From Candidatus Omnitrophota bacterium (GTDB taxonomy: Bacteria > Omnitrophota > Gorgyraeia > Gygaellales > Profunditerraquicolaceae): 64,000 nucleotides of DNA. A program made the translations under genes and the position numbers. The DNA lies in the NCBI GenBank assembly GCA_030650425.1, contig JAUSED010000005.1:78932-142931 (forward strand). The letters are read 5' to 3'. Below are positions 1-24,000 of the stretch, piece after piece. The stretch's first letter is position 1; the number at the start of each line of letters is the position of its first letter. The notes beneath the pieces are model-generated. The model did not search any database and was not told the origin of the DNA. It was given only the letters and a program-made list of their open reading frames with translations.

Positions 1-3000
1 AGGTAAAGGATGATGGCAAAGGGATTAACAAGGAGAAGATTATTAAGCGCGCGGAAGAGTTGGGATTCATCAAAAAAGGCCAAAGGCTTAGCGAGCAGCA
101 AATCCTTAACTTAATATTTCTGCCTGAGGTAAGCGAAGCAAAAGACAGCCGGGAAGGAACGGGAATAGGCTTGGCTACTATTAAGAAGAGCATTGAGGCT
201 GTATGCGGCCAGATAAACGTAAAGAGTAAGACAGGGCAAGGAACCCAATTTAGCTTTAGCCTGCCTTGCGGAGTAGAGCCAGATAAGCTGAAGTCCGGCC
301 TGATAAAATCATTAAAACATAAGCCGTTTGTTATCGAGGTAATCGGAGAAAGAGGGTCTTTTTATAAAGAGGCGGCTCTTTTCTTGACGTGCCTTTTGGG
401 AGCGCGGCCTTTTAACACAGGCTGGCATGCGCGCGCGGCAGTATCTTTATTGTTGAAAGCTATTATGGAAGGCGCGAAGGTAGACAAGAATGATACAAAA
501 GCTGTAGCCGAACTTATGGAAAAATTATTAGAATTAATAGACCGCCTCAGGGAGCCGGTAGTAATCGGCGGCATTGTTACAACCGCTAAGAATGGGAATG
601 CGGTATTGGCTTATCGCGATGAAATTAAATTAGTTACTGACGCCTTAGGCCTCCAGCTTCATAGATTGGTTAATAGCCTGGAAGTGAGCGCGGTAATTGA
701 TGAATTCATAAACAGCGTGGTTAATGGTACTATTGTTTCAGGCCGATACTCAGGCATAATTTTATATACCTCAAAACCGTCTAAACGAAAGGACTCGCTA
801 AAACTCGCGCTCTTGGCTCCTGCGGAAATACGCGCGCAGAGGTTGGGCTGTTCTGTAGAAGATATCAACAAGATAGACAAAAATACAGGTATGGGTGAGG
901 ATTTAAATTATTCCGATGGCATCCTATATATATCAACCGATGATCTTAGCCCGCGTCAGGCCTATCGCAAGGCGCTCGCTATTGTAAGAAAAGAGTTAGT
1001 TAAAGAGTCTTCGCCGCAATCTTCCACCAAACCTCTTTCATCCAGCCCTGCCAGTTCCCCGGTAGAATACGAAAGTAAGCCAGTGGTTTCAGGCGATATT
1101 TCCAGATTGCGCGGTTATTGGTTTATGGAAGCGCCGCGGGAGTATCGAAGGAACGCCCTTCTTTTCGCGGAGAATCACGATGAGCGTCCCGCGCTTGATG
1201 CCTTTAAGAGTATGGAAAAGGCAGAGGCCGCCGCTGTTATTATTCTATCAACAGAGGCGCATATGCTTATCCCGCTTGCCCAAATATACGGGATAAAAAT
1301 GCCTGTTGGCGCGCGCACGGAAATGATGAAATCCCCGGACGCGGGCATTTATCGTTTTAACTATCCACAGCGCCAAGAGGCTGACTTAAAAATAATGTCT
1401 TTCTTTGAACAGGTGCTTCCTATTTTTAGCCAGTCGGTTTTTAGTAAGGGCGATTTATACAGCGCTAAATTAGCTTATCCGGAGGTACATTCTTTAAGAG
1501 GGCTATTTCCGGTGGTGCGCCATTTGCAAGGAGCAGGCGACACAATAGCGGTGATTAATTATTCAGATGGCCGAGAGAAAGTCAGGATAGATTTAGCCAA
1601 AATTTTTGGTTATTATCCCAATCAGGGATTGGCAATTTTAACGCGTCAGCCCAAACTGCGCTATACCAAGAATGTCACTCTTGAATTTAAAGAACCGCGG
1701 ATAGAATTCTCTTTCGGCCCTTACGGCTATGCGATTTTAGGGTTTAGCTCCAGCTCGCCGTTGGAAGAGGAATTCGTATCTCCTACTTCTATGGAGCTTA
1801 ATCCTCACAACTCTTTCTACGGGCAAAAAACGATGATTGATGGCGTGCAGATAGATAAAGTTGTAGCAGCGGGCTTGAATAATTATATACAGGAAAAAGC
1901 ATTAAATACCGCTGACAAAGATAGATTGACTTTTTCTATTGATGGTGAGGCCTTGACGTATGAAATGGTTAAGCTCAAAGAGAGGGTTTTAGCCATAGAC
2001 ACAAGATTAAGCAGTTTGAACATAAAAGAAGCCTTAGCTGATTTATTAATCACAGGCTTAGAGGACGTAGCAGACTTTAATATAGAACAGCTGCCTTTTT
2101 GCTTACATTTTACACTACTTGAGAAATCCCGTTATCTTTTTGAATCTTTACCCGCGCATAATTTCGCAGGTATTAATAGGGGGATACTCGCGTTCACTAA
2201 CCCTCACGCCAGAGATGTTCTTTTGAGGCTGGGATTATGGCATATCTTGCATATTAAGGCAACAACCAAAGGCAGATTGCATGACGGCATTATGAGGCTT
2301 AGGGATGTCGGTGTTGCTAAGAGGTTGATCAAGGAAAGCCGGCTGGGAAGTATCAAAAGATTTATGGCCGCGGTTGAACGAGATGGAGTATTATCGGAGA
2401 ATGCGTTCTTGTTGAATATTCTAAAGGCTTTTTCGACGGAAGAGAAGAGCCCGCAGGATAAAGTGGCTGGTATAAGAGAAAGTATGCGTTGTGATCTCTT
2501 AAATGAACGTCTAAACGCGTTACAAGAAGCAGCTGATAATAATTTAGCAGTTTATCTTGTAGATGATTTATTAGTTTTGCTCCGCGAGAAAGAAGAGCCG
2601 GCCAGGTATAATTTACGCACGCAAGAGGGTAAAGATTGGTATCACGTTAAAATGAATGCTATTTGGCTGTTAGGTAAATTAGAAATATTTCAGGTTGGAA
2701 TAGAAAAAGCTAGGGAGGTCTTGGCCCTTATGCTTGCATTTGGCCTAAGGAGCCCCGCGCCCTGCGTTCATGTCTCAGCTATACTTTCTATTGAATCACT
2801 GGAAAAGAAGGCAAAGGCTTGGCTTAAGCAGGAAGAGGAGAAAGATACATTACTTCCGGGGGCATTACCCGAAGGTGGAGCGGTATCGAGCCCTGTTGAG
2901 GAGGAAGAGATTTTCTTAAGGGAAATTCTGGAAGAGTCTTGTCAAATGGGCTATACGCAGCGGGAGCGCGAGATTTTACAGAGCGCGGCAGAATTTATTT

Positions 3001-6000
3001 CTTCAGAATATCAAGGTAAAAGTTTTAAATCTGGGGAGACGTATTTCCATCATGCCTTGGCCGCGGCCAAGACGCTTTTAGGCTGGAGAGCCGATATAAA
3101 AATCGCCGTGGCGGCGTTTCTGCATAAATTAGACCCTGAATCAAGGAAAAGGCAGGAAGGCCGGCTGAAAATTAAGCATTTAGAAAGAGAAGAGGTTGAT
3201 CAAATTATCGGTATGGTTGAGCGTTTAGAAAACATTGAACAGCGCTGGCCGTATTTGGGCGGGACCATCGTTTACTTGAAAGGCAATAGAAGCGTGCGCC
3301 GTTACCAGAATGCCGTTATGCAATTATGCCGGGATTATGAAACGCTTCTTTTGGTTTACGCGGATAAATTACAAAGCCTGCCCAAGGCCGCGACCTTTAA
3401 GGAAAAAGAGTACCGTTTCCAGGAAATAGTGGATATTTATATGATGCTGCCAGCCCGCTATAACGATTATAGCATGTTTGAAAAACTTAGAAACAAGGCC
3501 TTTGCGATATATGTGCCAGAGGCGGTTTTAGCTATTGAAGGGGATGCCCAAAATAAAGGAATACGCCAAAAGACTTGGGGGCTTTCTTTCCAAGAAATGG
3601 AGCAAAAGCTGAGAGAACTTTCCGGAGAGATCGCTATTTTATTAGAGGCAGGCAACATTCAGGCGGAAATTAAATCGCGCGTAAAGAGCGCATACGGCAT
3701 GTTTGAAAAAATATCCAGCGGAAGAAGGGTAGAATATAATAATTTTGAGGCATTAAAAGATATTTTGGGAACACATATTATATCCGCAAGCGTGGATGTT
3801 ATTTATAATCCCATCATGGTTTGGCTGCGCAAGAAAGGATATAGTTTTAGCGTTGATCAAAAATCAAAATTCAAAAAAGGGTACGAAGCCATTCATATTG
3901 ATGTGGAAATAAACGGTATTGAGCAGGCGAAGGCCCCTCTGCCCTATGAAATCGTTATCTTTAGCCCGGATGATTATAAAAAATATATTTCCGGTAATAG
4001 AAAAGAAAAGTATCTGCCTTTAACTATCCCGCATTACGCTTGGAAATTCGCTGGCTTAGGCGAAAGAGGAGACGAGCAAATTATTGACGCGGATCAATTG
4101 GAATTAAATAGCTTGCCCGCTGAGAATTATCAACAATTGCTTCATTCGTTAAAAAAACTCATTTTTGTTAATTATTTAGAAAAAACACAACGCGGGCTTG
4201 AGGCGCGCTTTATAGAGCTTCCTTACCAAGCCTATCCGGCGGATCTGGCGGCGCATGAGGAGGTGAATAGGTTAGATTCTCAATACAATGGCTTTGTAAC
4301 AATCGCGCTTGAGAAGAGAGGAGAAGAAACCGTTAAAGAAATTTCTCGTCCCCAACCTTTGCAAGAAATCGCTCTTTTAGCAACAGGTATGATTGTCATG
4401 TTGAATCCTCCAGGGGAGGGTTTAGGCAAAGACGTGCTTGGGGTTCTTGAGACTAAAGTGAGCCAACCTCGCACAGTAATGCTTCTGAAGAGGTTGAGAA
4501 ATATGAAAAGTGCAGATTATTGGATTAGGGCGGGAAAGGCGTTAGTGAGCCATAATATAAAAGGCAGAGTTGATAAAGCATATTATGAAAACTTACGTCA
4601 GTTCGCGAGGAGCAAAGGATTTCTGGATATTGCTGAGCTTTTTGAGGCCTTTGGCCGCGGGATCGTTGAAGTTCCATTAGGCAAAAAAGGCGGCTCTTCA
4701 AGCCCCCTGGATTCATCCATTGACCTTGAATTCTTTAAGCATAAATTGCTTCATAGCGAAGGAAGCGTTTCCTTTAAGGGCCTAAATATTTACAGCGAAG
4801 AAGAAATCCGTTATTTTTGGAAGAAGCAAAAGAAATATGGCGGAGTTTTCCAGCAGTTGTCTTTCGCCGCCGATCAGCTAAGCAAGAAAGATAAGATTAA
4901 GGTTCTTTGCGCTGAGGGGGTTTCGCATTTTAAAGACGGCCCTAAATTTTTTACAGCCAGCCGCCTGGCTATTCTTCTGCGCGAGAAAGGCGTTCCTGCG
5001 GAGGCTTTTGACATTTATGTTGTGGATACGGATATGAGCGCGTTGGAACAAGCTGCTTACGGATTTTATGATGCCAGATGGTTCATTGCGCCTAAAGGTG
5101 AAGCGCAAGAGCAGGGTATATTTAAAAAATATTTTGTTGAGTCTAAAAAACCACAGGGGTATCAACTTAAAGAATCTCTACGCTCCCGCATTCATCCGGT
5201 ATATACGCCTTCCCTGATTGAGCTTGAGGAAATTAAAGAAATAGGCCAATTTGATTTGATTACATATTTTTTTAAGGAGTATGTTTTGGAAACAAATCCA
5301 AATGCTCACGGCCAGATCGTAACCAATATTGTAGCCGGACATTTGATCGCGTGCTTAAAGGAAGGCGGTTTTCTCTTAACAACAGCGAATAAATGGTTTG
5401 AAGAATCAAACCTGATGAAACGCCTATCCGTGACTGCGGTTTCCCGTATCCATCGTTCTAATGTGGGCACTTTTAGAACTAAGGTTCTCGCCTATAAGAA
5501 ATTATTCGCAAGCTATAATGATGAATTTTCTAATAAAAAACTCATTCAGCAGTCTAACCAGCTTCGCCATTTAGAAAAAGTTATGGGCCAAAATATCAGC
5601 GTTAAAAGATTCAGGGACGCGTATGAGCTTGCGCGTCAAATCCATCGGGGCAAGAAAAGAGATAACGGAGAACCGTATTTAATGCATCCTATAGCCGTCG
5701 TTGATATTTTTATTGATGTTTTAAAAAGATACCCTCAATATTGGAAGCAATTAGGCTTGGATAGGATTTCTCTGGATGATTCTTATGCCGCTTTGATTGA
5801 CCATGATGTGTTTGAGGAGTATGACTATGATCATGGCCCGTTGAAGAGAAAACAATTAGAGAGCCTGATTAAAATCGAATTAGGGGATGCGGCTTTTGAT
5901 TTTATCATCATATTGACAAATGATAAGGCAAGCGAAGAAGAATATCTTTTGCGCATTATTAGTGATACCCGTTTAATCCTTTCTCTTATGAAGATGGCTG

Positions 6001-9000
6001 ATAAACTGCATAGTTTAAAGACTCCCCGTTATTCCCGCGCTGCTGAGAGGCAGAAAGAGAGCCTTTTACAGGCTATTGATTTTATCCAGAAATCTCGGCT
6101 GCCCAAAGAGGTTCCGGGGATTGTCAAATATTTTATTGATGAAATTTGCCGTTTATATTTACCTGAAATTGTAAAAAGCCGCGAAGAGGGGACGCTTAAA
6201 GGAGGCTTGCCGCAACAATCTTCCCAGCTTGATCCGGAAAAATTTTTTAGCTCACCGGTGGGTCCCGAGGCCGACTGGCGGCGGGCCAATTTCTTACCCG
6301 AGACCTCACTGCTCTTTACTATCTTTTCACCTCAGGAGCAAAAGATGGCTCTTAAAAGATACAGAATCTTAACTCGGAATATGGCAGGGATTATCCCGGA
6401 GCATAACACGCCAGAAGCAGAAGAAACCATCAAGGCAATTTATCTCTACGGAGGGTATCTGTACCATGGTATCCCGACAGACATGGATATTGCGTTTATC
6501 AAATCGGCGAAGATTTCGGTTGAGAAGGACGCAGGGATTTCTATGCTTGCCCAGCGCCTCGCTGACACGGTAAGGTTCCGCGGAAAGGGGTCAGGTTCTG
6601 TTGAAGCGGAGAGGCGGTTGGGTATGACAGTGAATACCCGCCTTTATCTAACGGCAGCGGAATTATGGAATAGCGGCTATCAACTCAGGATGCCGTCTGG
6701 TCGGGAAATCTTTAATTTTGTCAGTCAATTGGTCTGGCCGACAGGGGGGAAGGGAAGTTATCTCGCGCAGGCGATCCTGGCTTTGAACCTATTGGATAAT
6801 ACGGTCTTGACCCGGCTAGGGCTGACTATGGCCGATGTCAGGTTAGTTTACTATGCCAGGGCCTTTTATCTTACTCAGAACCCGCCAATCGATATCCAAC
6901 AGGTTATGGATATCAATAAAAATGTTTGGTCACTGGTTAAAAAGATGAAATGCCAGTTTGCCAGTTCAGTCGTAAATAGAGGGGGTAGAAAGGATGCCTA
7001 TGGTTGTTTAATGCGAACTTTAGTTTCTCAACAACATAAACCTGGCTCCAGTTCACCGGTGGAGGTTTCATCTTCAATCGAAAGCTATGCCGTTGTGACG
7101 GATACTGAAAATAATTCTATAGTTTTTCTTCCCATAGTAAACGGCCCATATATTAGAAACTATCTTGGCACAAAAATAATTAGGGGATTGATTAAAAGTT
7201 TAGACCAATGGATAGGTTTTAAGATAGGCGGCAGGGAAGTACCCACTAATGAAGAAGAGGTTCTGCGTTGCCAGAAGATTTTAACACGATTCGTAATGCG
7301 TCGGTCAATGGGGGAAATTCCCATCGTGTCATTGCGAGCGAACGAAGTGAGCGAAGCAATCTCGACGAGATTGCTTCGTCGCTGCGCTCCTCGCAATGAC
7401 AAATTCCCTGGATCGCCCCCGTTCACTGACGCATTACCACGATTCATCTCCGAGGAAGGGGGAGAGGCAGTTGATTTGTCGACTAAGGGATTTGAAGTAC
7501 ATCTAGTCTTATCTTCGCAAGAAACTTCGAAAAAACCTAAACATCTATCCATAGAGGCATTTTTGGCAGTTAACCAGGAAGGCTATGTTGTGCTTGAGAT
7601 AGCCCCTTGGAATAAAGCAGGCCGTTATTTAGGCTTGGCCCATCAATTAAGGGTTTTCTTTTTTCAAAACATTTTATTGTGGAAATATGACCTTGGGCTT
7701 AAGGCTGTTTATAATATGATATTTACTGTGAGTTATAAGACTATTAACGGGTTAAAAAGAAGCGTATTTTTACCAAAAGACCTGCCAGACTTTATAGCTT
7801 ACGATCTTCCTCCTGTAAATATAGCGGTGATAGAGTCCTACCTTCTATCGTATCTTGTCAAGGAAACAGAGAGGGTGGCAGAGTTAGTGGTGAGAGACGA
7901 TTTAACGAAGAATAAAAAACGTTCTGGCTCGCCTATCGCGGCCTCATCGGTTGAGTCATCCGTTAACGGAACAGAGGAAACGGCAAGCGCGGAACTAAGA
8001 TCTATACTTCATAGCCTCAAGAATAAGTTTCTTTCGCTTGTATATTTTTCTGGCCTTTTGTTGCGTAAGGCTGGCCCCTTAAGAATCGAAGAGGATATAC
8101 CATTATTGAGACTGTTGCGAAATGTCATTTTTCGTCATCCTGAGCGAAGCGAAGGATCTCGTTATCGACGAGATTCTTCGGCCTTCGGCCTCAGAATGAC
8201 GCAAAGTCGGGCATTTCGCAACAGTCCCTTATTGCAAGCAAACAGCCCAATTTCATCCCCAATGGAGTTTCATATCGAATGGGCAGGGGCGCTTGACCAG
8301 AATCCGAAAGGGATTATCAGCGCGGCGGGCGAAAGATTTAAAATCTATTTTAATCTCGTATTTAGCGAATATTTCACCGCAGAAGAAGTACTGGCATTTT
8401 TTCCCGACCGGCTCAAAATAGAGATGAAGCCAAATTTTTACTACAAAGGAATAATCCTAGTGGATAAAATTCAGGTAGTAAATATTTATTCACCTGCCGG
8501 GGAATGGGCAAGGACTAACGACAGAGAGCAGCCAATCTATCCGGAGACCAAAAGCAAGGCCTTTAGGTTAGAGGTGCCATTTTATACCCATGATTCTTTA
8601 ATATTTGATAACGATATACACTGGGAAAAAAGGGAACTTTTGCTTTTTTCTCTGCTGATTAAATTTAAGCATCAGGGAGAAGAGAAGGTTATTGAACTTG
8701 AAGGGTATGGAAAAAGCGGGGCCGGCATAGTTGGCCTCCATTTACCTGCTGTAGGTTATTTTAGCGAAAGACTTAAGCAAAGGCTAGAGAATCTATACAG
8801 CGATTATTTAGGAGGCATTGAAAAAGATAACGCGATAACTCTCTTAGTGTATTATACGGAGGTATTAAAGATAGAATATGCTAAAGAATTACTGCTAAGG
8901 ATTGCCAAGGATAGCAACCATTTAATCAGAAAGGATTTGGCTGTAAGCTTAAGGCAGCTGTTAGCGCATGATATTCACGCAGAGATTTTAAATGAATTAA

Positions 9001-15000: not shown

Positions 15001-18000
15001 TAGAGAATATAAGCAAGTCTAATCCCAAGCATAATCATCTCTTAGATTTACGTCCAGCTATTCTAAGATACCTTCCTTGTGTCAAGGATCAAAAACGGCT
15101 CGAAGCAATCAAAGCTAATCTTAAGTTAGGCATTGGTGAAGTAAAGCAAGAATTAACTGAAGATGAGCTCATGCGAAAATGGATAGGAACCGCTATCCGT
15201 CGTTTAACCGAAGAAAGAGAAATAACCCCGGTTTCTTCTTTTAAATTACATGCCTTATTGGGGATTGAATATCGAGTGGCTACAAAAGCTGCCCGGCGTG
15301 AAATAGAATACTTAGAAGAGATCGGTTATCTCATTAGAAAGAAGGAAGGGAGCAATGAGTATGAGCTAAATAACACCCATTTAATTTTAATTGTAAAATC
15401 GTCGGTCAATTCATCGCCGTTAGCCGAAGGAGTGTCCCTTTGGGGAGCGTCCCCAATTAGAGTGATGGCCGCGGGCATTGCCCTTATCACCTATCTCCAC
15501 CTTGTATTATTTACTCCTGTTTTTGCCGCGGAGCAAGCTTTAAAAGCTCAGCCTCTAACGATTGCTAACCCGGTAGTCTCGCTCCAAAAAGCTATAACGG
15601 AGAAAACAATACAGCAAACAGGACTCGATCAATTAAAAGTAAAGAAGGCCGCTGATGAGATAAATAAGTATATTGAGGAGCATATTAGGAAGCATAAAAA
15701 AATAGATGAGAAAGAAATTAGCTGGATATTAGGAAAGATGGGAGTTAGTTTCGCGATTATTGATAAGATTATTGCTAATAAGGAGATAAAAGAGATTAAA
15801 ATTCTTCCCAAGTCTCCGGGGGAAGAGATAATAACCATAAAAGTGCCCCCTGTTTTGCTTCCCCAACAAACGTATATCGAGCCTGCCAAGCAAACGCCTC
15901 GTGAAGCAAAGGTAAAAAAACCAACGCCGAAACCAGCAGTTTCTATTAAGGGGGAAGCCGCCATAGCTACCATTCCGCCCGGCACAAAACTTTCGTTGGA
16001 TGACAAGAAAATCACGATTAACCACCTCGTAACTTTGACCAGAGGGCCCGCCGGTATAATAATTACCATAGAAATTCCTCAGTGGGATAAAAATAAGCCT
16101 AGCCGCAGTAAGCTACTGAGTACTTTCAGCGGCGCGATGTTTACCTTATTGCCATTTTTAGGTATCGAGACGAGCCAGACGAATATCGATACTTTTGTGA
16201 AGGTGGTAGCAAGCTGGAACGGAAAAGATAATCCTAATAAACTAAGCCCAAGAGAAAAAATTTCCTATCCTATCGGAGAAGAAAGGGCGGCTGATTTACT
16301 TAAGGCCTTAAAGCCTGCCGCGCAAAGAGAAAAAATAATTGAACCTCCGGTTAAACAGGAAGAACCTAAAGAACCTTCGCAGGAGCAGCCTGCGTTAGAA
16401 AAAGAAGAGCAGATACTGCCGGCTGATGAGGTTAAGCAGCTTTTGGATGGGTTGACAAACGACAAGAACAGGGAAAACAAAGAGAAGATTAAAGAGCTGG
16501 TTACAAAAGTGGAGCGGCTTAGCAAAGAAAGCAGGTTTGCGGATGTTCCCCCCGAACTCGTGCAGAACCTTTGGATTGTGGTTGGTAATTATTATCAAAA
16601 CATAGGAGACGCAGAGAACGCTATTCGTGCTTATAAGGAAGCTGTTGAAGTTGGTAAGAAATTAGCCAAGCCATCTACCGGTCCCTATTCTCTTTTGGCA
16701 CAGCTCTATAAATCCCAAGGCCAGAGCTACCTTAAAGAGGAGCTGGAAGCCCTAATTTCATATATTGAACTGGCGAAGAGGCAAGGCATAGCAACGCCTA
16801 CCGAGGAAAAAAGGCGTAAGGAAATAGAAGATCTGCTGCACGGACAAAAAGTTCAGGCTGACGCAGAGCAAATTATGCAATTGCTGACAGGGGCTTCTCA
16901 GGATGTTGAAAGAAGAGATAAGCCGGCTGCTTTGGATAAAGTTAATCAGGCCATAGGAATTATAAAAACAAACAATATGGTTTTCCCCGGCGCATGGCAG
17001 CTTGCCGGGGAGATTTATTATAAGTTAGGCGATCTTAATCAAGCCCGGGATGCTTTCGCAATCTCCGGAGAAACGCCCGAGGCAAAATATGGTTTGTTTT
17101 TGATCGGGTTCAAGCAAGGCAAATTAGACGAGGCCCTGCCTACTTTGGGAGCCGCGATTGAAATGGCTTCAGGAGATAATAAAGACGCCTATCAAAAAGC
17201 ATTGTATGCTGCCGCGGAAGAATTAGAGAAAAGCGGTAAGCCTGAGGCGAAAAAATATTTCGAACAGATTATTACTTTGGATTCCGGAAGAGCGGGAGAT
17301 GCGCAGGTTAGATTAGGGGATATTTATTATCAACAAGGAGATTTTAAGCAGGCCGCTAAGTTTTATGCGGATGCCTTAAAGAGCGATTCTAGCGATGCCC
17401 GAAACACAGCCAAGAGCCAGCTTGCGCGGATTAGCTATAGGAATTTTATGAGGAGTACTCTTCCTATGCTTTTTGTTGGTTTGGTTTTATTCATTATCGC
17501 AGGAATCTCTGCGGGTAGAAAATTCAAAAATAAATTCAAACAAACATTAGAAAAAAGAGGGATACCTGTTAGCCAAGAGGACTTGGAAGATGAAAAATTC
17601 CAGTTAGAGCAAATAATAGCCAAGCCTGAAGCCCAATGGGTCCGTAAAGCCCTGTTTCCTTGGGGAATGATCACCAGCATAAAAAATTCTTTGAGGAGAG
17701 AGAGGATTAGGGAATTAAATAAATATAGATTTGCGCGTGACGCCGGTTGCGGGGAAGAGGAGGTAAAGAGATTCGAGAGATTGATGGTTGTTTACCGGGT
17801 TACAGGAGAAAAAGGATGGGCAAAGATAATCCCCTATCGCGTTATAGGCTTTATAGGAGGCCTGTCTTATGCCGGAAAAGTGATCTTGCCTCCCGGAAAT
17901 CAGCCAGCCGCGAAAATAGTTCAACTTTATCTTGAGATTGAAGGAGTAGGGATAATATGCAGGCCCGCGACCGACTTTTATGTCGATGAGGCTAAGGCAA

Positions 18001-21000
18001 TTGAAGAACTTAAAAGAAGGCAAAACGCATCCGCGATTAAGCCTAGTTTCAGCTCGCCGGTGATACCGCCAGATCGAGGGACACAATGCTTAATTCCGGA
18101 GGAATCCTCTTCTCCAGCTATATTGCCGCCTCTAGCTCCGCAAGAGCCTCTTGTTTATAGCTTTCAAGGCAGAATAGCGTCAAAGACAGAAGCAAATAGG
18201 GCTACGATAATTCGTGATATGACGATCAATGGTGTTTTCGGATTTAAGCTGATTATAGAGGAATATCAACGCGCCAAAAAATATGATCTGCATATCAATG
18301 ATTCCGACAGTTACCCTATTGGCTGGGTAGAATGGGAGTTTAGAGATGAAGTGCCTTATATTATTTTCATCAAGAGAAGGTTTAGCTATAAAGGTAAAGG
18401 ATTATCAGAATTGTTGATGAGGATAACGTTAAAACATATAGAAAAAATTTATGGCCAAAGAGTAGAAGATACAATAGTTGATTCATTTGTTATTTTTTCT
18501 GAATCTAGCATTGCGCGTATAACCGGATTATTACAGCGCCTATGGTTTAGGGCAGCCAAGGAAGATAAAGAAGCGATAAAGTTCCTGAAGTATCTAAAAG
18601 GCCTCCCAGACCCTTTCAGAGTATCTTCAAGTTCTCCTCTGCCCGGAATTCCCGTAACTTCTTCTCCCACAATTTATTCCGAAGATAATCTAAATAATCT
18701 AAGGACACAATCCTTAATTTCAAGTTTTGGAATTAAGTATTGTGTCCCTGGAATTCCTGGAATTCGGGACAATTTAGAAGACAGAATAATCATATATGAT
18801 GTTAACGGAAGAACAAAGATTATGAAAAAAGATATTAGGGCTAGCATAGTTGACATAGATCAGTTGCACCTTACTTCGTCTCAGAATAGATTGAGCGGAG
18901 GCAGATTTGTTGGTTGCACAGCTTGCCTTTTCTGGGATAACAATGCAGGTATCCATGGGTTTCTACATTTATTTCCTGTTCTTACGGCTGCCGAAGATTC
19001 GATCAAAGGCATTATTCCCGCAATAATCAATAATTTTAAGTTTTGGGGAGGGGAAATAAATGATATTGGTTCAGCGCTTATTCTCGCGCAATGTTCACAA
19101 AAAAATATTGCCCAAGTTTTGTTAGAGCAATTAGGAAGAAATACGAAAGTGGTTTTCGAAAATTTAACTGCCGATCCATTCGCAATAAGAAAACAGGAAT
19201 ATATTAATCGTATTAGCATCGAAAGAAATTTATTCTCTATAGACTTGCCTAAAATTCCTAAGCCTTTAATCTTTTCTATGGTTGACAATAAAAATCAATT
19301 CGTTAGTTCGCCTGTTGCTTATATGCCCATATCATCCCGAGGCGCGAGAAGGCACGCGAGATTTTGGCTGTTAATTAGTGTCGCGGAAATGGCGGGATTG
19401 ATGGTTGTGGGTATTTTAAGCCTGAGGGCCATCGGCACAATCGCCTTAATTACTTTGAGCGTATCAGCTATGCTCTATCTTCAGGCAGGTATTTTAAAGA
19501 AATGGGAAGAAATCATTCTGTCTAATCCTATAAGGGCCGGGCCCTTGAAAAAAGTTGCTTATTTCTACCGCTGGTTAGATCGCGTTGAAATTAATCCTGT
19601 CATTCTTGACCAGCAAAAAGGGCTGAAGTTATACTTTTTGTTCCTTCCTCATGAAGTATTCCATAAACTGAATTTAAAGGTCATTAAAACCTTCCGATCA
19701 ATCTTTCCGAGTTACGGGAAGAAGCTATCCGACTCTAAAACTATAGACGCCTTAGATGAATTTGGCGCTTATTTATTAGGCGCCTTTATTCCCGTGATGA
19801 TTTTAACCTTGCCGTTTACCACCTGTATTATCCATGAATCGTATATAAGAAGGGCAGCGCGCACAAATCGTATGCTTGAGGCGCTAAGGGCATTTGACAG
19901 AAAATACGAACAATTGGGCATAGAAGAACTTAATGAGGAAGAGTTTGGAGAATTAGAGCGGGGTATCATTGAAGAGGTTTTAGATGCAAATGTTGATATG
20001 TATTTATGGAATGAGAATGAACCGGTAAATAGCCAGAAAGGCATTGATCTAGACGAAGAGGCGTGGCTGCGCGGTAGTATAGAGCAATATTTTAGCGTCA
20101 ATGATCCTGCCGCAAGGCAGACGATCTTAAATCTTCTTTTAGCAGAAGAGTCAGAATATGAAAGGAAAGGCGGGTTAGGCTGGCGTTGGTTATTTAAATA
20201 TGATTCTTTAGGGAAGCCGGTAGGATTGCTGGGCCTGCATATATTCGATAGAAATAAGCTTCCTCAAGGGGTTATTGCCGGCAGCCTGATTCAGGAAGAG
20301 TCACTATATGGAAAGGGTTATGTAAACGAGATATTGTTCTGGATAACGGATAAGGGAGACAACGGCTTAAGTATATTTAAGATTACAAATTGGCTTAAAA
20401 ATAAGGAAAAGAGGCATCCCAACTACATTATGGATGGGGATACTAATTATTTACTCTTCGCGTTGTCTGAAATTATGCACCGCATAGATGACAAACGGCG
20501 TATTCTTAGGGAGAAGAGCGAATTAAGAGAAGCGGGGATAAAAGATTTGTTAACCGGCGCTTATAACAGAAGGTATTTAGATGAAAGTTTACCCAAGTGG
20601 ATAAGCGAAGCAGAAAAATTTAAGTATTTTTTCAGCCTGTTAATGCTGGACATAGATTTTTTTAAGGGCGTTAATGATACCTACGGCCATCCCGCGGGGG
20701 ATGCCATCTTAAAAGGCATAAGCGAGGAAATTCAACGCACTATGCGAACGGATATATTCAGGCCTTCTGATGTTTCGTTCCGTTACGGAGGGGAGGAGTT
20801 TTGTGTTATTGCAACATCTAATCTTGAAGGGGCAAAGAAGCTGGCTGAAAATATAAGAAAAAATGTAGAAGGGCTTTCTTTTGTGCTGCCGGGAGTTAAA
20901 AAGCCTGTCAAAGTTACGGTAAGCATTGGGGTAACTGAATATAGGCCGGGTGATGATACCCTGGGCGCTTTGATAAAAAGGGCAGACCAGGCCCTATATA

Positions 21001-24000
21001 AAGCAAAAGAAAATGGCAGAAACAGGGTAGAGGCCTTCGCGGCCTCTTTAGTTAGTTCGCCTATTGAAGGCTCGCGCGCGGATTTTTATCGCCCTAAGGC
21101 GGACAATCATTTGCCTTCTATCCCCAAGGAGAGGGAAGAGGCAATTAGGGGAGAGTTAAAGGGAAATCAGCCGATAACTAATATTCAAAGGCAATTTGTT
21201 ATTGATGTATTGAATGAGGCTCAAGGTTTAGCGAGAGAAGACGTAGAAATTGTACGTTCATTGCGGGGAATAGCTTCTATAGAAATACGCGCAGGGCCTA
21301 TGCCTAACCTTTACGGAGCTATTTATGATAATATCTTATATTTAGACACACTATTTTTCCAATCCCGCCAACGAATAGATTTTCTTCTTACCTTAATTTA
21401 TCTAGCCGGAGCCAGGCTTGGCAGAAAACGCAGGCATAATGAAGCATTTGCCAAGAAATACGCGGCAAATATTCCCAATAATAACCAAACTATAGTTAGC
21501 AGGCCGGAGTTATTCTTAAAACCCGAAGAAGTAATCGTATATTTTAAGCGCGAAGGAGAGAACATTGATAAAATCCAAAAGAACTCTATCTGGCTGCAGT
21601 TACCGGATGAATTTAAGGATTTTACAGTATTGACCCCGGCTCAAGCCCTAACTGAAGGGCTTATTATATTAACGAATAATCCGCACCTAAAGGAGCGCCT
21701 GCAAAATAATATAATATCGCAGCCAGAACGCTATAGAGTGTCAATAGAAGGAAAAGTCAGCGAGGAGGATTTACGTTCTATGTTATCAGGCCGGTATGTA
21801 AAAGCGGCAAGAGGAGAGAATAGCGGAGCTAATAATACTGTGCATATGTGGAAGGTAAAGCCGGATAGCCTAGAGGTAAAAGAACGAAATAAGGATAACA
21901 CAATTTTGGAGATTTATTTTTCCAGAAGAGGGGAACGGGAGATTTTGGTATTATTCAAGAATTTCGGTTATTCAGTGAAAAACATAACCCGGACACAAAT
22001 AGGCCTAATTAGCCCGCAGGATTTGAAACCCGGCAGTTATCGCAGGCTAAAATGGAATGAAATACCGGCCATAGCCGGGCTTTATTTCAAAGATACTTTG
22101 TATGAGCGAAACTTAGCGGTAAAAGAGCAAAAATATGCCCTTGAAGAAACGCAGGATTATGAGGTTATCGACTTCTTATTGAATGATAAAAATGTGATAA
22201 GTGATGTTTTCCAGAATATTTTTATGAGGTTTGATTTGGCCGCCGATAACGGAGAGAGAGAAGATCTTTATTACATCAGGGAGGGGGGGTTTAAAAGAGT
22301 TTACAAAATAGTCTTAAGGTCGAAAAATAACATAGAAAGATTCGCGTTTTTCGTTAAGGTTGTTAAGGCTGATGTTGAAATGACCGATTCTGGTTATCGT
22401 TATGACGCGGAGTATGCTAAAAGGCTTGTTGAGACCGCGCGCTTAGCGCGGCCATTAGCGCGGCAGAAGGAGCTTGATTCCTATCCTCCCGTAGGCGGTT
22501 ATTATTGCGTAAAGGGTAAAAACGGAGAAACAAGGATTATTTTTACAGAGGGCATTATCCCCGCGGCAAACGCGCATTTAACCCCGGATAAGAGAAACCA
22601 GATACTGATCAGGACGTATCTTTTATACTATTATATTTTTGGGAAACAAATATTTTTTGCGGATTCTAAACCGGAGAATGTTATTATCCATCATAAATCC
22701 CAGATAGGATATAGAGGCACGCTTATCGATATGGATAATATTATCTTTAGCGAAATATCCCCAGCCCATCTTGTCCATAACCTGCTTTTATACGGTTTCA
22801 AAGCAAGCGACATTATAGAAGCCTTGATTAAATTCTTGGGCAATCAAGAAGCCCACGATTTCTTAAGGTCAATTATGTTTTTAGCCGCGCAGCCGCACAG
22901 CCAGATTATGATTCCTATAGTAGAAGCGTTTAAAGGTTATAGAGATAGAGGGATATTCCAAAAGGAGGTCAGCGGAAGTTTTAAGATTAAGCAGCCTATA
23001 AAAATAGCTATCAATGATAAAGAAGTGTTAGTACCGGAACGGACAACCCTTCTTGAGATTTTAAATGATTGCTACGTGGATATTAATACGATGGATGTTG
23101 AATTAAATGGAAATCTGCTATCGCTGGGCCCCGGGGCCTTATTGACAAGCGAAAAAAGGTCAAAATATAAAAATACTATTCTAATGAGTAACGACAAAAT
23201 AAAATTCTACAGGGAATCAAGAGTTCACAAGGCTATGCCTAATGAGGTTCCTAAATTTTACACCCCTGCTTTAAAAATAAAATTAAAGCTGCTTAAGGAA
23301 ATGGGGTTTGATGGGCAATTAAAGGCCATGTCAAAAGAATTAATTAAGTTTAATTCCGCGGTTATAGATAAGGCCGTTGTAACGCCGGAGGTTAAGTCTT
23401 TTAGGCTCGTCAGCGGTTCATTATTAAATAACTTTATGAGGTATCTCAAAAAACACAGAAACCATCCTTTTGAAGGCTTTAAGCCGGATATAATGCTGAA
23501 GAGGTTTGACGATATAGATTTTGAAAGGCCGCAAGAAAGAGACAAAATGAGGCCGGTGCTTCAAAAATTACTGGCAGGCTTAAAGGATTCAAATAATACA
23601 TTTGATAGGATTTTTAAAATGTCAGCCGAGGAAGCGCGCGGCAGCAGCCCGGCCATCCAGGGCTCAAAACAACAGGTTAAGATTAAGAAGACAAAAGAAT
23701 TTGAGGAAATTTTGAAAGGAATTGTTTCAAGCCCGATTGCTAAAGAAGAGTATTTAGCTGTAGTGGTTGAGAGGGGATTTTTTGTGCCGGAAGGAATAGA
23801 AATGATAGAAAAAAGCCTTGATAAAGGCATATTGCACCCCGGAACGAAGGTGAGTCCGCAAGATTTCGCTGAATTTATGGAAAATTTTCATCTTAATTCA
23901 GGATTAACCGCGGGCTTGAATAAAATCTCTCGGCTAGCCTATTGGCCAATAAGCGAGAGTAAAAAGATATTTTATTTACCCAAAGAGTTATGGATGCGGA

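What the first reader, a model, noticed from the sequence alone, without database searches (positions are those of the whole stretch)
1..21035. Several unrelated signalling enzymes, including at least two nucleotide second-messenger systems, are fused in one polypeptide
Within 21 kb the ORF strings together a CheA-type ATPase (3-269), a RelA/SpoT (p)ppGpp module (2990-3990), a CheR-like methyltransferase (4890-5300), a second HD domain (5610-6030) and an intact GGDEF cyclase (20540-21035). Two LOG-family domains follow at 53.2-54.3 kb.

These normally belong to separate chemotaxis, stringent-response and c-di-GMP pathways. I saw none of their usual partner domains, such as the receiver, HPt, CheW or ACT domains that normally accompany them. 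Their co-linear fusion is not a known architecture.
Basis: partly seen in the sequence, partly recalled or inferred. Interest (0 to 1): 0.55.

Follow-up and report, generated by a model that had tools for sequence, protein, structure and literature searches.

The report
Slice of an Omnitrophota-type giant gene
The fused signalling enzymes are real, but they are a few of about 40 protein-sized modules in one giant gene of a kind already described in Omnitrophota bacteria, and the modules are separated by a recurring Ser-Ser-Pro motif that the two preprints I checked do not mention.

Summary
All 64 kb of the window form one open reading frame: frame +3, 21,332 codons, no stop, open at both ends.
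- a CheA-type ATPase;
- a Rel-like module whose hydrolase half is degenerate (HK instead of HD) and whose synthetase half is divergent;
- a CheR-fold methyltransferase fused to an intact alarmone-hydrolase HD domain;
- an intact GGDEF cyclase with an I-site;
- a tandem LOG pair, of which one copy is intact.

The claim that this is "not a known architecture" does not hold. The only close relatives are fragments of very long proteins from Omnitrophota genomes assembled from metagenomes. Published surveys (2023, 2026) list HATPase_c, GGDEF, LOG, radical SAM, methyltransferases and HD domains among the usual contents of such giants. One homologue is followed by PilZ, sugar-transporter and glycosidase genes, as published for this class.

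New here: the peptide [S/A/G]-S-P-[V/L/I/M] occurs 72 times against about 3 expected. It sits at module boundaries, at a median spacing of about 490 residues. It also occurs in a subset of homologous giants, and it is absent from about 30,000 residues of ordinary Omnitrophota proteins. It is a candidate linker or processing site.

Verdict: a new member of a known kind, with moderate interest.

The parts
3..63998 (+). Single uninterrupted ORF (21,332 codons), open at both ends: an internal slice of a giant gene
   Evidence: 0 stops, against 1,702 and 2,021 in the other + frames. Self-BLAST shows it is almost non-repetitive. GC3 is homogeneous across modules, 0.40 +/- 0.04.
3..269 (+). CheA-type (P4) HATPase_c, cut by the window start. 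G1 (DDGKG) and G2 (GTGIG) boxes are present. No CheW-like P5 domain follows.
   Evidence: No Pfam hit in aa 89-961 even at E <= 1.
168..887 (+). End of the ATPase plus an unannotated domain, homologous to the start of Omnitrophota giant fragment P0011
   Evidence: BLASTP 31.6% identity over 247 aa, E 1e-22
1131..1976 (+). Region homologous to Omnitrophota fragment P0001, which its source annotates as alpha-amylase family. An SSSSP motif is conserved at the aligned position (aa 583).
2886..4697 (+). Module A (aa 962-1565), a long-RSH (Rel-like) protein. It has a pseudo-HD (LLHK, ADKLQSL) at aa 995-1151 and a divergent synthetase at aa 1225-1330 (R..K...S...K, D..G.H, GY..H, YEIVIF), followed by a C-terminal region. 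There is no ACT domain.
4698..6248 (+). Module B (aa 1566-2082): a CheR-fold SAM methyltransferase (about aa 1625-1835) fused to an intact alarmone-hydrolase-type HD domain (aa 1869-2027; HP, HD, E, D all present)
   Evidence: (catalytic residues invariant in 14 homologues)
11454..11612 (+). GerE/LuxR-type helix-turn-helix
   Evidence: E 4.3e-9
16455..17402 (+). TPR repeat scaffold
19305..21053 (+). GGDEF module (aa 6435-7017). After the SSP motif come a basic stretch, three TM-like helices (aa 6456-6610) enclosing a PIRAGP...HEVFH motif, an unannotated region of about 230 aa, and the GGDEF domain (aa 6848-7008) with GGEEF and RPSD.
   Evidence: The N-terminal part found no homologues by the word-indexed protein search.
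2886..2894 (+). SSP motif (VSSPVEEEE), start of module A. This is one of 50 SSP and 72 [SAG]SP[VLIM] sites in the window.
4698..4706 (+). SSP motif (GGSSSPLDSS), boundary between modules A and B
   Evidence: Homology to other giants stops here.
6249..6257 (+). SSP motif (FFSSPVGPE), end of module B
21054..21062 (+). SSP motif (LVSSPIEGS), end of the GGDEF module
32304..32879 (+). Two XRE-type HTH domains plus an Aca2/YdiL-like domain
38460..38717 (+). GNAT acetyltransferase
43572..44018 (+). Radical SAM domain
46278..46664 (+). Calcineurin-like metallophosphoesterase
49263..49655 (+). M48 (HtpX/Ste24-like) metallopeptidase with HEITH, flanked by TM-like helices
53202..54302 (+). Tandem LOG/SLOG domains. 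Copy 1 is intact (PGGLGTLDE) and copy 2 is degenerate. The whole tandem is homologous to P0015 and P0058.
59412..59702 (+). PrmA-like class I methyltransferase, with a paralogous copy at aa 16651-16748

Best explanation
The window is an internal slice of a giant gene (at least 64 kb, at least 21,332 aa) of the multi-enzyme type known from the candidate phylum Omnitrophota: the 'Archaeovorin' type, or class 1 'multi-enzyme' giants.

The polypeptide is a mosaic of about 40 modules, each the size of an ordinary protein (median about 490 aa). They include enzymes, TPR scaffolds, HTH domains and TM segments. Modules are joined by a conserved [S/A/G]-S-P-[V/L/I/M] linker, often followed by acidic residues.

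The signalling enzymes are individual modules, each corresponding to what would elsewhere be a separate gene:
- a CheA-type ATPase;
- a Rel-like protein with a dead hydrolase;
- a CheR-fold methyltransferase fused to an alarmone hydrolase;
- a membrane-anchored GGDEF cyclase;
- a LOG pair.

Inferred, not shown:
- The modules act autonomously while tethered to the cytoplasmic membrane by the scattered TM helices.
- Their ATP-, GTP-, SAM- and acetyl-CoA-dependent domains face the cytoplasm.
- Fusion gives equimolar co-expression and co-localisation in a very small cell.
- c-di-GMP made by the GGDEF module is read by small PilZ proteins of the kind encoded directly downstream of homologous giant genes.
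- The adjacent synthetase-only and hydrolase-only modules split alarmone turnover between them, in the way RelA and SpoT or small alarmone hydrolases do.
For: - One ORF, with no stop in 21,332 codons.
- Domain repertoire matches the published repertoire for Omnitrophota giants.
- An exhaustive HMMER search with aa 961-2100 gave 52 hits below 1e-10. The best are fragments of 1,000-8,000 aa, and every one that carries an organism name is from Candidatus Omnitrophota/Omnitrophica and is marked partial.
- Homologue P0011 is the 3' end of a giant ORF that runs off its contig. It is followed by 2 PilZ genes, GH94, SBP_bac_1, 2 BPD_transp_1 and GH2. This is the downstream context West-Roberts et al. 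describe.
- Modules A and B hit homologues independently and at different positions.
- Motif statistics: SSP 50 observed against 3.5-3.8 expected; [SAG]SP[VLIM] 72 against 2.9. Serine codons vary between TCN and AGY, so selection acts on the peptide. No motif lies inside a Pfam domain. Only 4 of 49 homology segments cross a motif (about 30 expected), and in the two crossings I inspected the homologue has the motif at or within a few residues of the aligned position.
- The motif is absent from 2,983 aa of ordinary genes next to a giant and from 27,587 aa of ordinary Omnitrophota ORFs.
- Five of nine first TM helices start within 40 aa after a motif (P about 3e-4), as N-terminal signal anchors would.
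- In homologues the Rel-like module is 720-732 aa, from about one SSP to the next. That is the size of a canonical RelA/SpoT, and it includes a weak ACT match.
- In the AF2 models the module ends next to the motifs have pLDDT below 50.
- Catalytic residues are kept in GGDEF, HD2, LOG1 and the ATPase G-boxes.
Against: - The source genome was not found, so the Omnitrophota origin rests on homologues at 25-49% identity.
- The ends of the gene are outside the window. This includes any SecA_DEAD, C39 or signal-peptide region and the downstream genes.
- TM helices were called by hydropathy only.
- If all 17 were real, a simple alternating topology would put a GerE DNA-binding domain outside the cell, so some calls must be wrong.
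- No expression, activity or localisation data exist for this protein.
- The Rel-like synthetase lacks conserved Q and R residues and has H in place of R in D..G.R, so it may be inactive or use another substrate.
- Several other long homologues lack the SSP motif entirely, so it is not universal.
Confidence: 0.72

Rival explanations
1. Bacterial polyprotein. The giant ORF is translated once and then cut, or released during translation, at the SSP[V/L/I] sites. This yields about 40 separate proteins, so the signalling enzymes are fused only at the gene level.
For: - Motif spacing equals ordinary protein size, and motifs coincide with module boundaries.
- Modules are shuffled independently between giants.
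- Signal-anchor-like TM helices start right after motifs.
- The Rel-like module is full protein length between motifs in homologues.
- An M48 metallopeptidase and other HExxH sites lie within the ORF.
- West-Roberts et al. propose proteolytic processing but say the cleavage points are unknown.
Against: - There is no direct evidence of cleavage.
- I know of no protease with this specificity.
- A flexible hinge, or a glycosylation or phosphorylation site in a linker, would give the same sequence pattern.
- Other related giants lack the motif.
- Some motifs occur in clusters 10-45 aa apart, which fits a linker better than a unique cut site.
Confidence: 0.2
2. One integrated signalling protein. 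The CheA-like kinase, the Rel-like module, the CheR-like methyltransferase and the GGDEF cyclase were brought together to couple chemotaxis-type sensing, alarmone and c-di-GMP output within one molecule.
For: - All these domains lie in one ORF.
- Modules A and B are adjacent.
- The CheR-HD fusion is conserved in at least 13 homologues.
Against: - The domains are separated by thousands of residues of unrelated modules.
- No receiver, HPt, CheW, MCP or PilZ domain is present to link them.
- In homologues the same modules occur in other orders and about 5,000 aa apart, for example in P0011.
- The same ORF also carries radical SAM, GNAT, M48, phosphoesterase and HTH modules.
Confidence: 0.05
3. 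A polyvalent or effector protein of a mobile element or defence island. On this reading it is a chain of toxin-like or conflict domains (RSH, SLOG/LOG, GNAT, XRE-HTH, Aca2-like) delivered into or used against another cell.
For: - Several domain families here (RelA/SpoT-like, SLOG cluster 4, GNAT, XRE plus Aca2/YdiL-like) also occur in conflict systems.
- One homologous fragment is annotated RelE/ParE.
- Nielsen & Lui keep 'integrative-element passenger genes' as an open hypothesis.
Against: - PADLOC found nothing in aa 1-10,000.
- GC3 is homogeneous.
- The homologue's context is PilZ, sugar transporter and glycosidase genes, not a mobile element.
- The size is far above known polyvalent proteins.
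Confidence: 0.04
4. Artefact: an assembly chimera or a non-coding stretch that happens to be open.
For: Long-read assemblies of such genes are error-prone. L082 shows a related giant gene broken into abutting ORFs.
Against: - Errors break ORFs rather than create them.
- 21,332 sense codons in a row cannot arise by chance when the other frames carry 8-9% stops.
- Recognisable, well-folding domains lie along the whole length.
Confidence: 0.01

Closest known systems
'Archaeovorin'-type giant proteins of Omnitrophota (West-Roberts et al. 2023, bioRxiv 10.1101/2023.11.21.568195; type: the 39,678-aa protein of Velamenicoccus archaeovorus LiM)
   Same: - ORF of tens of kb, scattered TM helices, mostly unannotated sequence.
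- The domain repertoire includes HATPase_c, GGDEF, Lysine_decarbox, Radical_SAM, TPR and methyltransferases.
- Modules are homologous to Omnitrophota fragments.
- A homologue has the published downstream context of PilZ, transporter and glycosidase genes.
   Different: - Within this 64 kb I found no HEAT repeats, GT5/GT1 glycosyltransferases, NUDIX, SecA_DEAD or C39 peptidase. They may lie outside the window.
- The window is enriched in regulatory and nucleotide-signalling modules.
- The SSP inter-module motif is not mentioned in that paper.
Class 1 'multi-enzyme' long proteins and Pfam co-occurrence 'Module 1' (signal transduction/regulatory) of Nielsen & Lui 2026, bioRxiv 10.64898/2026.06.07.730766
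   Same: - Many distinct Pfam families tile one polypeptide, with none dominating.
- Methyltransferase, HATPase_c, GNAT and HD domains co-occur.
[quoted passage not shown]
   Different: That catalogue is described at Pfam level only. It has no module boundaries or linker motif, and RelA/SpoT and CheR-fold modules are not discussed.
Long RSH enzymes (Rel, RelA, SpoT)
   Different: - HD is replaced by HK throughout this family.
- EIQIRT is replaced by YEIVIF.
- There is no ACT domain in the window copy.
- The module is embedded in a giant polypeptide.
- Scores are far below the family cut-offs.
Small alarmone hydrolases, Mesh1 and RelH; CheR chemoreceptor methyltransferase
   Different: - I am not aware of the two being described as a fused unit elsewhere.
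- No CheR_N domain was detected.
- The Pfam CheR score is below its cut-off.
- The substrate is unknown; no chemoreceptor-type domain was found in the window, and the rest of the genome is not available.
Polyvalent proteins of phages and conjugative elements (Iyer, Burroughs, Anand, de Souza & Aravind 2017, J Bacteriol; cited from memory) and viral polyproteins
   Same: Many unrelated enzymatic domains are concatenated in one polypeptide. Polyproteins have short recurring cleavage motifs at module boundaries.
   Different: - No mobile-element or viral context.
- No defence-system or phage hits.
- The protein is several times larger.
- Cleavage has not been shown.

Membership tests
Omnitrophota giant ORF (Archaeovorin / multi-enzyme class) | Single ORF longer than 20 kb (more than 10,000 aa) | tested here: met
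   At least 63,996 nt and 21,332 codons without a stop, open at both ends
Omnitrophota giant ORF (Archaeovorin / multi-enzyme class) | Encoded in an Omnitrophota genome | tested here: inconclusive
   The source genome was not recovered. All best homologues that carry an organism name are Candidatus Omnitrophota/Omnitrophica MAG proteins.
Omnitrophota giant ORF (Archaeovorin / multi-enzyme class) | Many distinct enzyme domains, including methyltransferases, peptidases, HATPase_c, GGDEF, LOG, radical SAM and TPR, with most of the sequence unannotated | tested here: met
   compared. About 86% of residues have no Pfam match (my rough tally).
Omnitrophota giant ORF (Archaeovorin / multi-enzyme class) | Numerous transmembrane helices | tested here: met
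   17 hydropathy peaks of at least 1.7 over 19 residues. This is a heuristic, not a dedicated predictor.
Omnitrophota giant ORF (Archaeovorin / multi-enzyme class) | SecA_DEAD-like domain and N-terminal C39/S8 peptidase | tested here: not met
   None found in the 64-kb window. The gene ends lie outside the window, so absence from the whole gene cannot be tested.
Omnitrophota giant ORF (Archaeovorin / multi-enzyme class) | Secretion-system genes upstream; PilZ, solute-binding/ABC and glycosidase genes downstream | not testable with these tools
   The window holds only the ORF. The homologue P0011 locus (L081) does show 2 PilZ, GH94, SBP, 2 permease genes and GH2 downstream.
Long RSH (RelA/SpoT homologue) | HD hydrolase catalytic motif (HD...ED...ADRLHN) | tested here: not met
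   Module A has LLHK and ADKLQSL, as do all members of its subfamily.
Long RSH (RelA/SpoT homologue) | Synthetase motifs RxKxxxSxxxK, DxxGxR, GYxSxH, EIQIRT | tested here: inconclusive
Long RSH (RelA/SpoT homologue) | C-terminal regulatory TGS and ACT/RRM domains | tested here: not met
   No TGS or ACT by Pfam at E <= 1. Homologues P0011 and P0024 have weak ACT matches before the next SSP.
Small alarmone hydrolase / Mesh1-type HD | HD fold with the R, H(P), HD, E, D catalytic set | tested here: met
CheR methyltransferase | CheR-type class I methyltransferase fold | tested here: met
CheR methyltransferase | Sequence membership (Pfam PF01739 cut-off) and the N-terminal CheR_N helical domain | tested here: not met
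   16.8 bits against a cut-off of 27; no CheR_N hit.
GGDEF diguanylate cyclase | GG(D/E)EF active site, metal-binding D and N residues, Pfam/TIGRFAM cut-offs | tested here: met
   RYGGEEF and DIDFFKGVND are present. PF00990 scores 141 bits and TIGR00254 159.8 bits.
GGDEF diguanylate cyclase | RxxD allosteric I-site five residues upstream of GGEEF | tested here: met
   RPSDVSFRYGGEEF
CheA histidine kinase | P4 ATP-binding domain of CheA type | tested here: met
   The ten best PDB matches are CheA P4 (E 6e-15 to 2e-10). The N-terminal third of the domain is off the window.
CheA histidine kinase | P5 CheW-like domain after P4; P1 HPt and P3 dimerisation domains before it | tested here: not met
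   No CheW hit downstream at E <= 1, and the PDB alignment to CheA P4-P5 stops at the end of P4. P1-P3 would lie upstream of the window and cannot be tested.
LOG (lysine-decarboxylase-like) family | PGGxGTxxE motif | tested here: met
   Copy 1 has PGGLGTLDE at aa 17829. Copy 2 (AGGIGTLDILSD) lacks the E.
Known anti-phage defence systems | Match to any PADLOC model | tested here: not met
   0 families for aa 1-10,000

The most novel reading that the evidence does not exclude
The [S/A/G]-S-P-[V/L/I/M] motif is a processing or co-translational release signal. On this reading the giant ORF is a bacterial polyprotein, a 'one-gene operon', that yields about 40 separate proteins, including free CheA-like, Rel-like, CheR-HD, GGDEF and LOG enzymes. 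A second group of related giants would achieve the same with a repeated small R[AG]PP...HExxH/C domain between modules.
Probability: 0.2. Interest if true: 0.85.

Novelty: new member of a known kind. Interest (0 to 1): 0.48.

Why it matters
Giant genes of Omnitrophota take up a sizeable share of very small genomes, and what they do is still unclear. The published work says that whether they are cut into pieces is an open question, and that the lack of known cleavage points blocks structural annotation.

For the finding as written, the result is deflationary. The fused signalling enzymes are typical cargo of a known class of gene, not a new signalling architecture.

The useful by-product is a simple sequence rule: a Ser-Ser-Pro-hydrophobic motif that is specific to the giants I examined and sits at module boundaries.
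- It lets such proteins be split computationally into protein-sized units. Two such units gave AF2 models with pLDDT 81-87.
- It turns the question 'one protein or many?' into something existing mass-spectrometry data could test.

Tried and rejected
- **Genome scan.** None of the Omnitrophota loci it returned held a giant ORF.
- **Metagenome scans.** Two scans found nothing: aa 89-400, and a 3-sequence alignment of module B. A 14-sequence alignment was too divergent to build patterns from.
- **Word-indexed protein searches.** These were insensitive. With 2,100 aa, one real hit. With module B, only P0009. With the GGDEF-module N-terminus, nothing. The exhaustive HMMER search was what worked.
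- **Searches of unannotated stretches.** Pfam at E <= 1 on aa 89-961, 1451-1650 and 2083-3806 gave nothing useful. PDB sequence searches on aa 89-961 and 2083-3806 gave nothing, and on aa 3806-6435 gave only TPR matches.
- **Other libraries.** PADLOC found nothing. Rfam found nothing, and there was only one trivial tandem repeat.
- **DNA-level origin of the motif, rejected.** The serine codons vary, so the SSP motif is not a DNA repeat or recombination site.
- **General compositional bias, rejected.** Ordinary Omnitrophota ORFs have none of the motif.
- **Recent acquisition of the signalling modules from different donors, rejected.** GC3 is uniform.
- **Minus-strand ORFs** (up to 238 aa) were treated as shadows of the giant ORF and not pursued.

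Full report
**1. What is in the window.**
Translation of the six frames shows that frame +3 (nt 3-63998) has no stop codon in 21,332 codons. The other two + frames have 1,702 and 2,021 stops. The ORF listing shows nothing long only because it omits ORFs that run off the ends. The finding's 21 kb is therefore the first third of a single ORF that fills the window and continues beyond both ends. The protein has an ordinary globular composition. By self-BLAST it is almost free of internal repeats, with eight weak paralogous pairs at 31-47% identity. There is one trivial DNA tandem repeat and no Rfam match. GC3 is uniform along the ORF, 0.40 +/- 0.04 across 41 segments.

**2. Check of each claimed domain** (residue n = nt 3n..3n+2).
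- *CheA-type ATPase, nt 3-269.*
  - Pfam HATPase_c matches aa 1-88, cut by the window start.
  - The ten best PDB matches are all CheA P4 domains (E 6e-15 to 2e-10). Ordinary histidine kinases begin at E 7e-5. NCBIfam ranks CheA models first.
  - The alignment to CheA P4-P5 stops at the end of P4. No CheW-like domain follows, even at E <= 1.
- *RelA/SpoT module, nt 2990-3990.*
  - HD_4 matches aa 995-1151. RelA_SpoT at aa 1225-1317 scores below the curated cut-off. TIGR00691 gives E 2e-23.
  - Alignment with 11 homologues and 6 canonical RSH proteins shows that this whole subfamily has LLHK where canonical enzymes have LLHD..ED. It is a pseudo-hydrolase.
  - The synthetase keeps R..K...S...K, D..G, GY..H and the catalytic E. 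It lacks the Q and R of EIQIRT (YEIVIF here). The window copy also has H in place of R in D..G.R. Whether it makes (p)ppGpp is open.
- *CheR-like methyltransferase, nt 4890-5300, and second HD, nt 5610-6030.*
  - Pfam CheR reaches only 16.8 bits (cut-off 27), and Pfam misses the HD.
  - A PDB sequence search matches the HD to Rel/SpoT hydrolase domains (E 3.9e-9).
- *GGDEF, nt 20540-21035.* E is 3.8e-41 (Pfam) and 4.6e-47 (TIGR00254). It has RYGGEEF, DIDFFKGVND, an RPSD I-site at the canonical distance, and the DxLT..NRR stalk.
- *LOG pair, nt 53.2-54.3 kb.* Two Lysine_decarbox stretches plus SLOG cluster 4. Copy 1 has PGGLGTLDE and copy 2 is degenerate.

**3. The rest of the ORF.**
Pfam also finds the following:
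- GerE;
- several TPR arrays;
- two XRE-type HTH domains with an Aca2/YdiL-like domain;
- GNAT;
- radical SAM;
- a metallophosphoesterase;
- an M48 peptidase;
- two PrmA-like methyltransferases.

By my rough tally, only about 14% of residues fall in any Pfam match. No receiver, HPt, CheW, ACT, PilZ or EAL domain appears. A hydropathy scan gives 17 TM-like segments. Three of them lie just upstream of the GGDEF domain.

**4. Relatives.**
- *Search results.* The word-indexed search with aa 1-2100 found one real relative, a partial 2,573-aa Omnitrophota protein. The exhaustive HMMER search with aa 961-2100 found 560 hits, 52 of them below 1e-10.
- *Two independent units.* The query behaves as two units. 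Hits cover either aa 962-1557 (module A) or aa 1565-2071 (module B), at quite different positions in subject proteins of up to 7,967 aa.
- *Origin of the hits.* Every top hit that carries an organism name is a partial protein from a Candidatus Omnitrophota/Omnitrophica MAG.
- *P0011.* This homologue sits on a 41.7-kb contig, and its frame is open up to the contig end. The gene is followed by two PilZ genes, GH94, a solute-binding protein, two permeases and GH2.
- *P0032.* This homologue is part of a giant gene that is broken into abutting ORFs. It carries LOG, APH, DSPc, CheR, PrmA, NUDIX, PRTase, GT5, GT1 and PMM.

**5. Comparison with the literature.**
[quoted passage not shown] 2023, PMC10066038).
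- West-Roberts et al. 2023 define 'Archaeovorins'. They list HATPase_c, Radical_SAM, TPR, Lysine_decarbox and GGDEF among the 20 commonest domains. They note PilZ genes directly downstream that could read c-di-GMP from the GGDEF domains, followed by solute-binding proteins, transporters and glycosidases. They state that cleavage is suspected but the cleavage points are unknown.
- Nielsen & Lui 2026 catalogue 916 proteins of 10,000 aa or more, with a 'signal-transduction/regulatory' Pfam co-occurrence module. They argue that TM-only giants are inner-membrane-anchored with cytoplasmic enzyme domains.

This is a new member of that class.

**6. A recurring inter-module motif.**
- *Where it came from.* While reading the alignment to P0001 I saw SSSP on both sides.
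- *Frequency.* In the window, SSP occurs 50 times (3.5-3.8 expected from shuffles), SSSP 18 times (0.3 expected), and [SAG]SP[VLIM] 72 times (2.9 expected).
- *Sequence context.* The residue after Pro is V, L, I, M or A in 47 of 50 SSP cases, and acidic residues often follow. Serine codons are a mix of TCN and AGY, so the constraint acts on the peptide.
- *Spacing.* Merged into 40 linker clusters, the spacing has a median of 487 aa.
- *Position relative to domains and homology.*
  - No motif lies inside a Pfam domain. The recognisable modules are bracketed by motifs at 962 | Rel-like | 1566 | CheR-HD | 2083, and 6435 | TM+GGDEF | 7018.
  - Of 49 BLAST segments shared with long homologues, only 4 cross a motif (about 30 expected for random sites). 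This test is dominated by two modules. In the two crossings I inspected, the subject has the motif at or within a few residues of the aligned position.
- *Paralogues.* The internal paralogues at aa 3523 and 10342 both start at an SSP motif.
- *Membrane helices.* Five of nine first TM helices begin within 40 aa after a motif (P about 3e-4), like N-terminal signal anchors.
- *Module size in homologues.* In P0011 and P0024 the Rel-like module runs 720-732 aa, from about one SSP to the next. That is the length of a canonical RelA/SpoT, and it includes weak ACT matches. The window copy (605 aa) has lost the ACT part.
- *Model confidence.* Both AF2 models have low confidence at the motif-proximal ends.
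- *Distribution.*
  - The motif is bimodal among homologues: 1.5-4.7 per 1,000 aa in one subset (P0001, 9, 11, 12, 18, 24, 25, 32, 35, 49, 58, 66, 91...), and zero or chance level in other long homologues.
  - The canonical-size (650-780 aa) RSH hits have no SSP[VLIMA] at all, and [SAG]SP[VLIM] only at the chance level: 4 observed against 3.1 expected.
  - It is absent from 2,983 aa of ordinary genes next to the P0011 giant and from 27,587 aa of ORFs in five other Omnitrophota loci. The giant ORFs of L081 and L082 have 19 and 40 copies.
- *Literature.* Neither preprint contains 'linker' or 'SSP', and no paper in the library pairs Omnitrophota with 'polyprotein'.

**7. Interpretation.**
- *Shown.* There is one giant ORF. 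Its modules are homologous to, and shuffled relative to, modules of Omnitrophota giants. Each signalling domain lies inside its own motif-delimited module. GGDEF, HD2, LOG1 and the ATPase G-boxes keep their catalytic residues.
- *Inferred.*
  - The modules are former independent genes that now work side by side on one membrane-tethered polypeptide.
  - The ATP-, GTP-, SAM- and acetyl-CoA-dependent modules must face the cytoplasm.
  - Fusion replaces operon-level co-regulation.
  - c-di-GMP from the GGDEF module is read by downstream PilZ proteins, as seen in the homologous locus.
  - Modules A and B split alarmone synthesis and hydrolysis between them.
- *Open.* The motif may be a flexible hinge, a modification site or a cleavage site; the sequence cannot tell. 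I put the polyprotein reading at about 0.2.
- *Unlikely.* A single integrated signalling machine is unlikely because module order is not conserved and no connecting domains exist. A defence or mobile-element reading has no support from PADLOC, from composition or from the homologue's context.

**8. Limits.**
- The gene ends are unseen.
- TM calls are heuristic. They cannot all be right, because a strict alternation would put a GerE domain outside the cell.
- The boundary test relies mainly on two modules, since the homologues were collected with those two.

Noticed in passing
window aa 336-21151 (50 sites; e.g. nt 2886-2894, 4698-4706, 6249-6257, 19305-19313, 21054-21062): [S/A/G]-S-P-[V/L/I/M] occurs 72 times against about 3 expected. 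It sits at module boundaries and is specific to the giant ORFs examined: it is also present in a subset of Omnitrophota giant fragments and absent from about 30,000 aa of ordinary Omnitrophota ORFs. It is a candidate linker or processing site and is not mentioned in the two preprints on these proteins.
   Followed up: yes
window aa 6509-6555 (nt 19527-19667) and aa 7094-7150 (nt 21282-21452); P0043, P0027, P0016, P0046, P0026, P0037, P0038, P0020, P0023: A small 'IRAGP ... HExxH' element lies among the TM helices upstream of the GGDEF domain, with a degenerate copy right after the GGDEF module. In long homologues that lack the SSP motif, a related domain of about 90 aa (R[AG]PP ... HE[LI]xxH/C) recurs between enzyme modules, four times in P0043. 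It could be an alternative module separator, perhaps a protease-like one.
   Followed up: partly
window aa 3523-3838 and 10342-10705 (nt 10569-11516 and 31026-32117): Two paralogous modules of unknown function (32-38% identity) each start at an SSP motif. Each is followed by a helix-turn-helix module, GerE in one case and XRE in the other. This suggests duplication of a two-module block.
   Followed up: partly
window aa 18279-18323 and 20431-20472 (nt 54837-54971 and 61293-61418); L081 nt ~430-560: A conserved module start, 'SSP[VL].(K)..VGAT', appears twice in the window. It also appears in the P0011 giant ORF just before its HATPase-like module.
   Followed up: no
window aa 10768-10959 (nt 32304-32879) and aa 3818-3870 (nt 11454-11612): DNA-binding HTH domains (two XRE plus Aca2/YdiL-like; GerE) are embedded in a polypeptide predicted to be membrane-anchored. 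This is odd for transcription factors unless the modules are released or the protein contacts DNA at the membrane.
   Followed up: no
window aa 16343-16551 (nt 49029-49655): An M48 (HtpX/Ste24-like) metallopeptidase with HEITH lies between TM-like helices. It is a protease encoded in cis that could act on the giant protein itself.
   Followed up: no
window aa 962-2082 (nt 2886-6248): A synthetase-only Rel-like module (dead HD) lies directly next to a hydrolase-only module (CheR-fold methyltransferase plus intact HD). This resembles the RelA/SpoT division of labour. The CheR-HD fusion is conserved in at least 13 Omnitrophota fragments, and I do not know of it elsewhere. The adjacency of the two modules is not conserved: they are about 5,000 aa apart in P0011.
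   Followed up: partly
L082 (ENA ERZ25039459 contig_38025, 31 kb held): A related giant gene is called as a chain of abutting same-strand ORFs (7546+, 304, 868, 270, 90, 3669, 2020, 1904+ aa) in three frames, all rich in the SSP motif. The most likely cause is frameshift errors in the assembly, which would make public length statistics for such genes underestimates.
   Followed up: partly
window minus strand, e.g. 54671-55387, 45410-45922, 39053-39532, 61380-61865: The only complete ORFs of 150 aa or more listed in the window are antisense to the giant ORF. They were treated as shadow ORFs.
   Followed up: no
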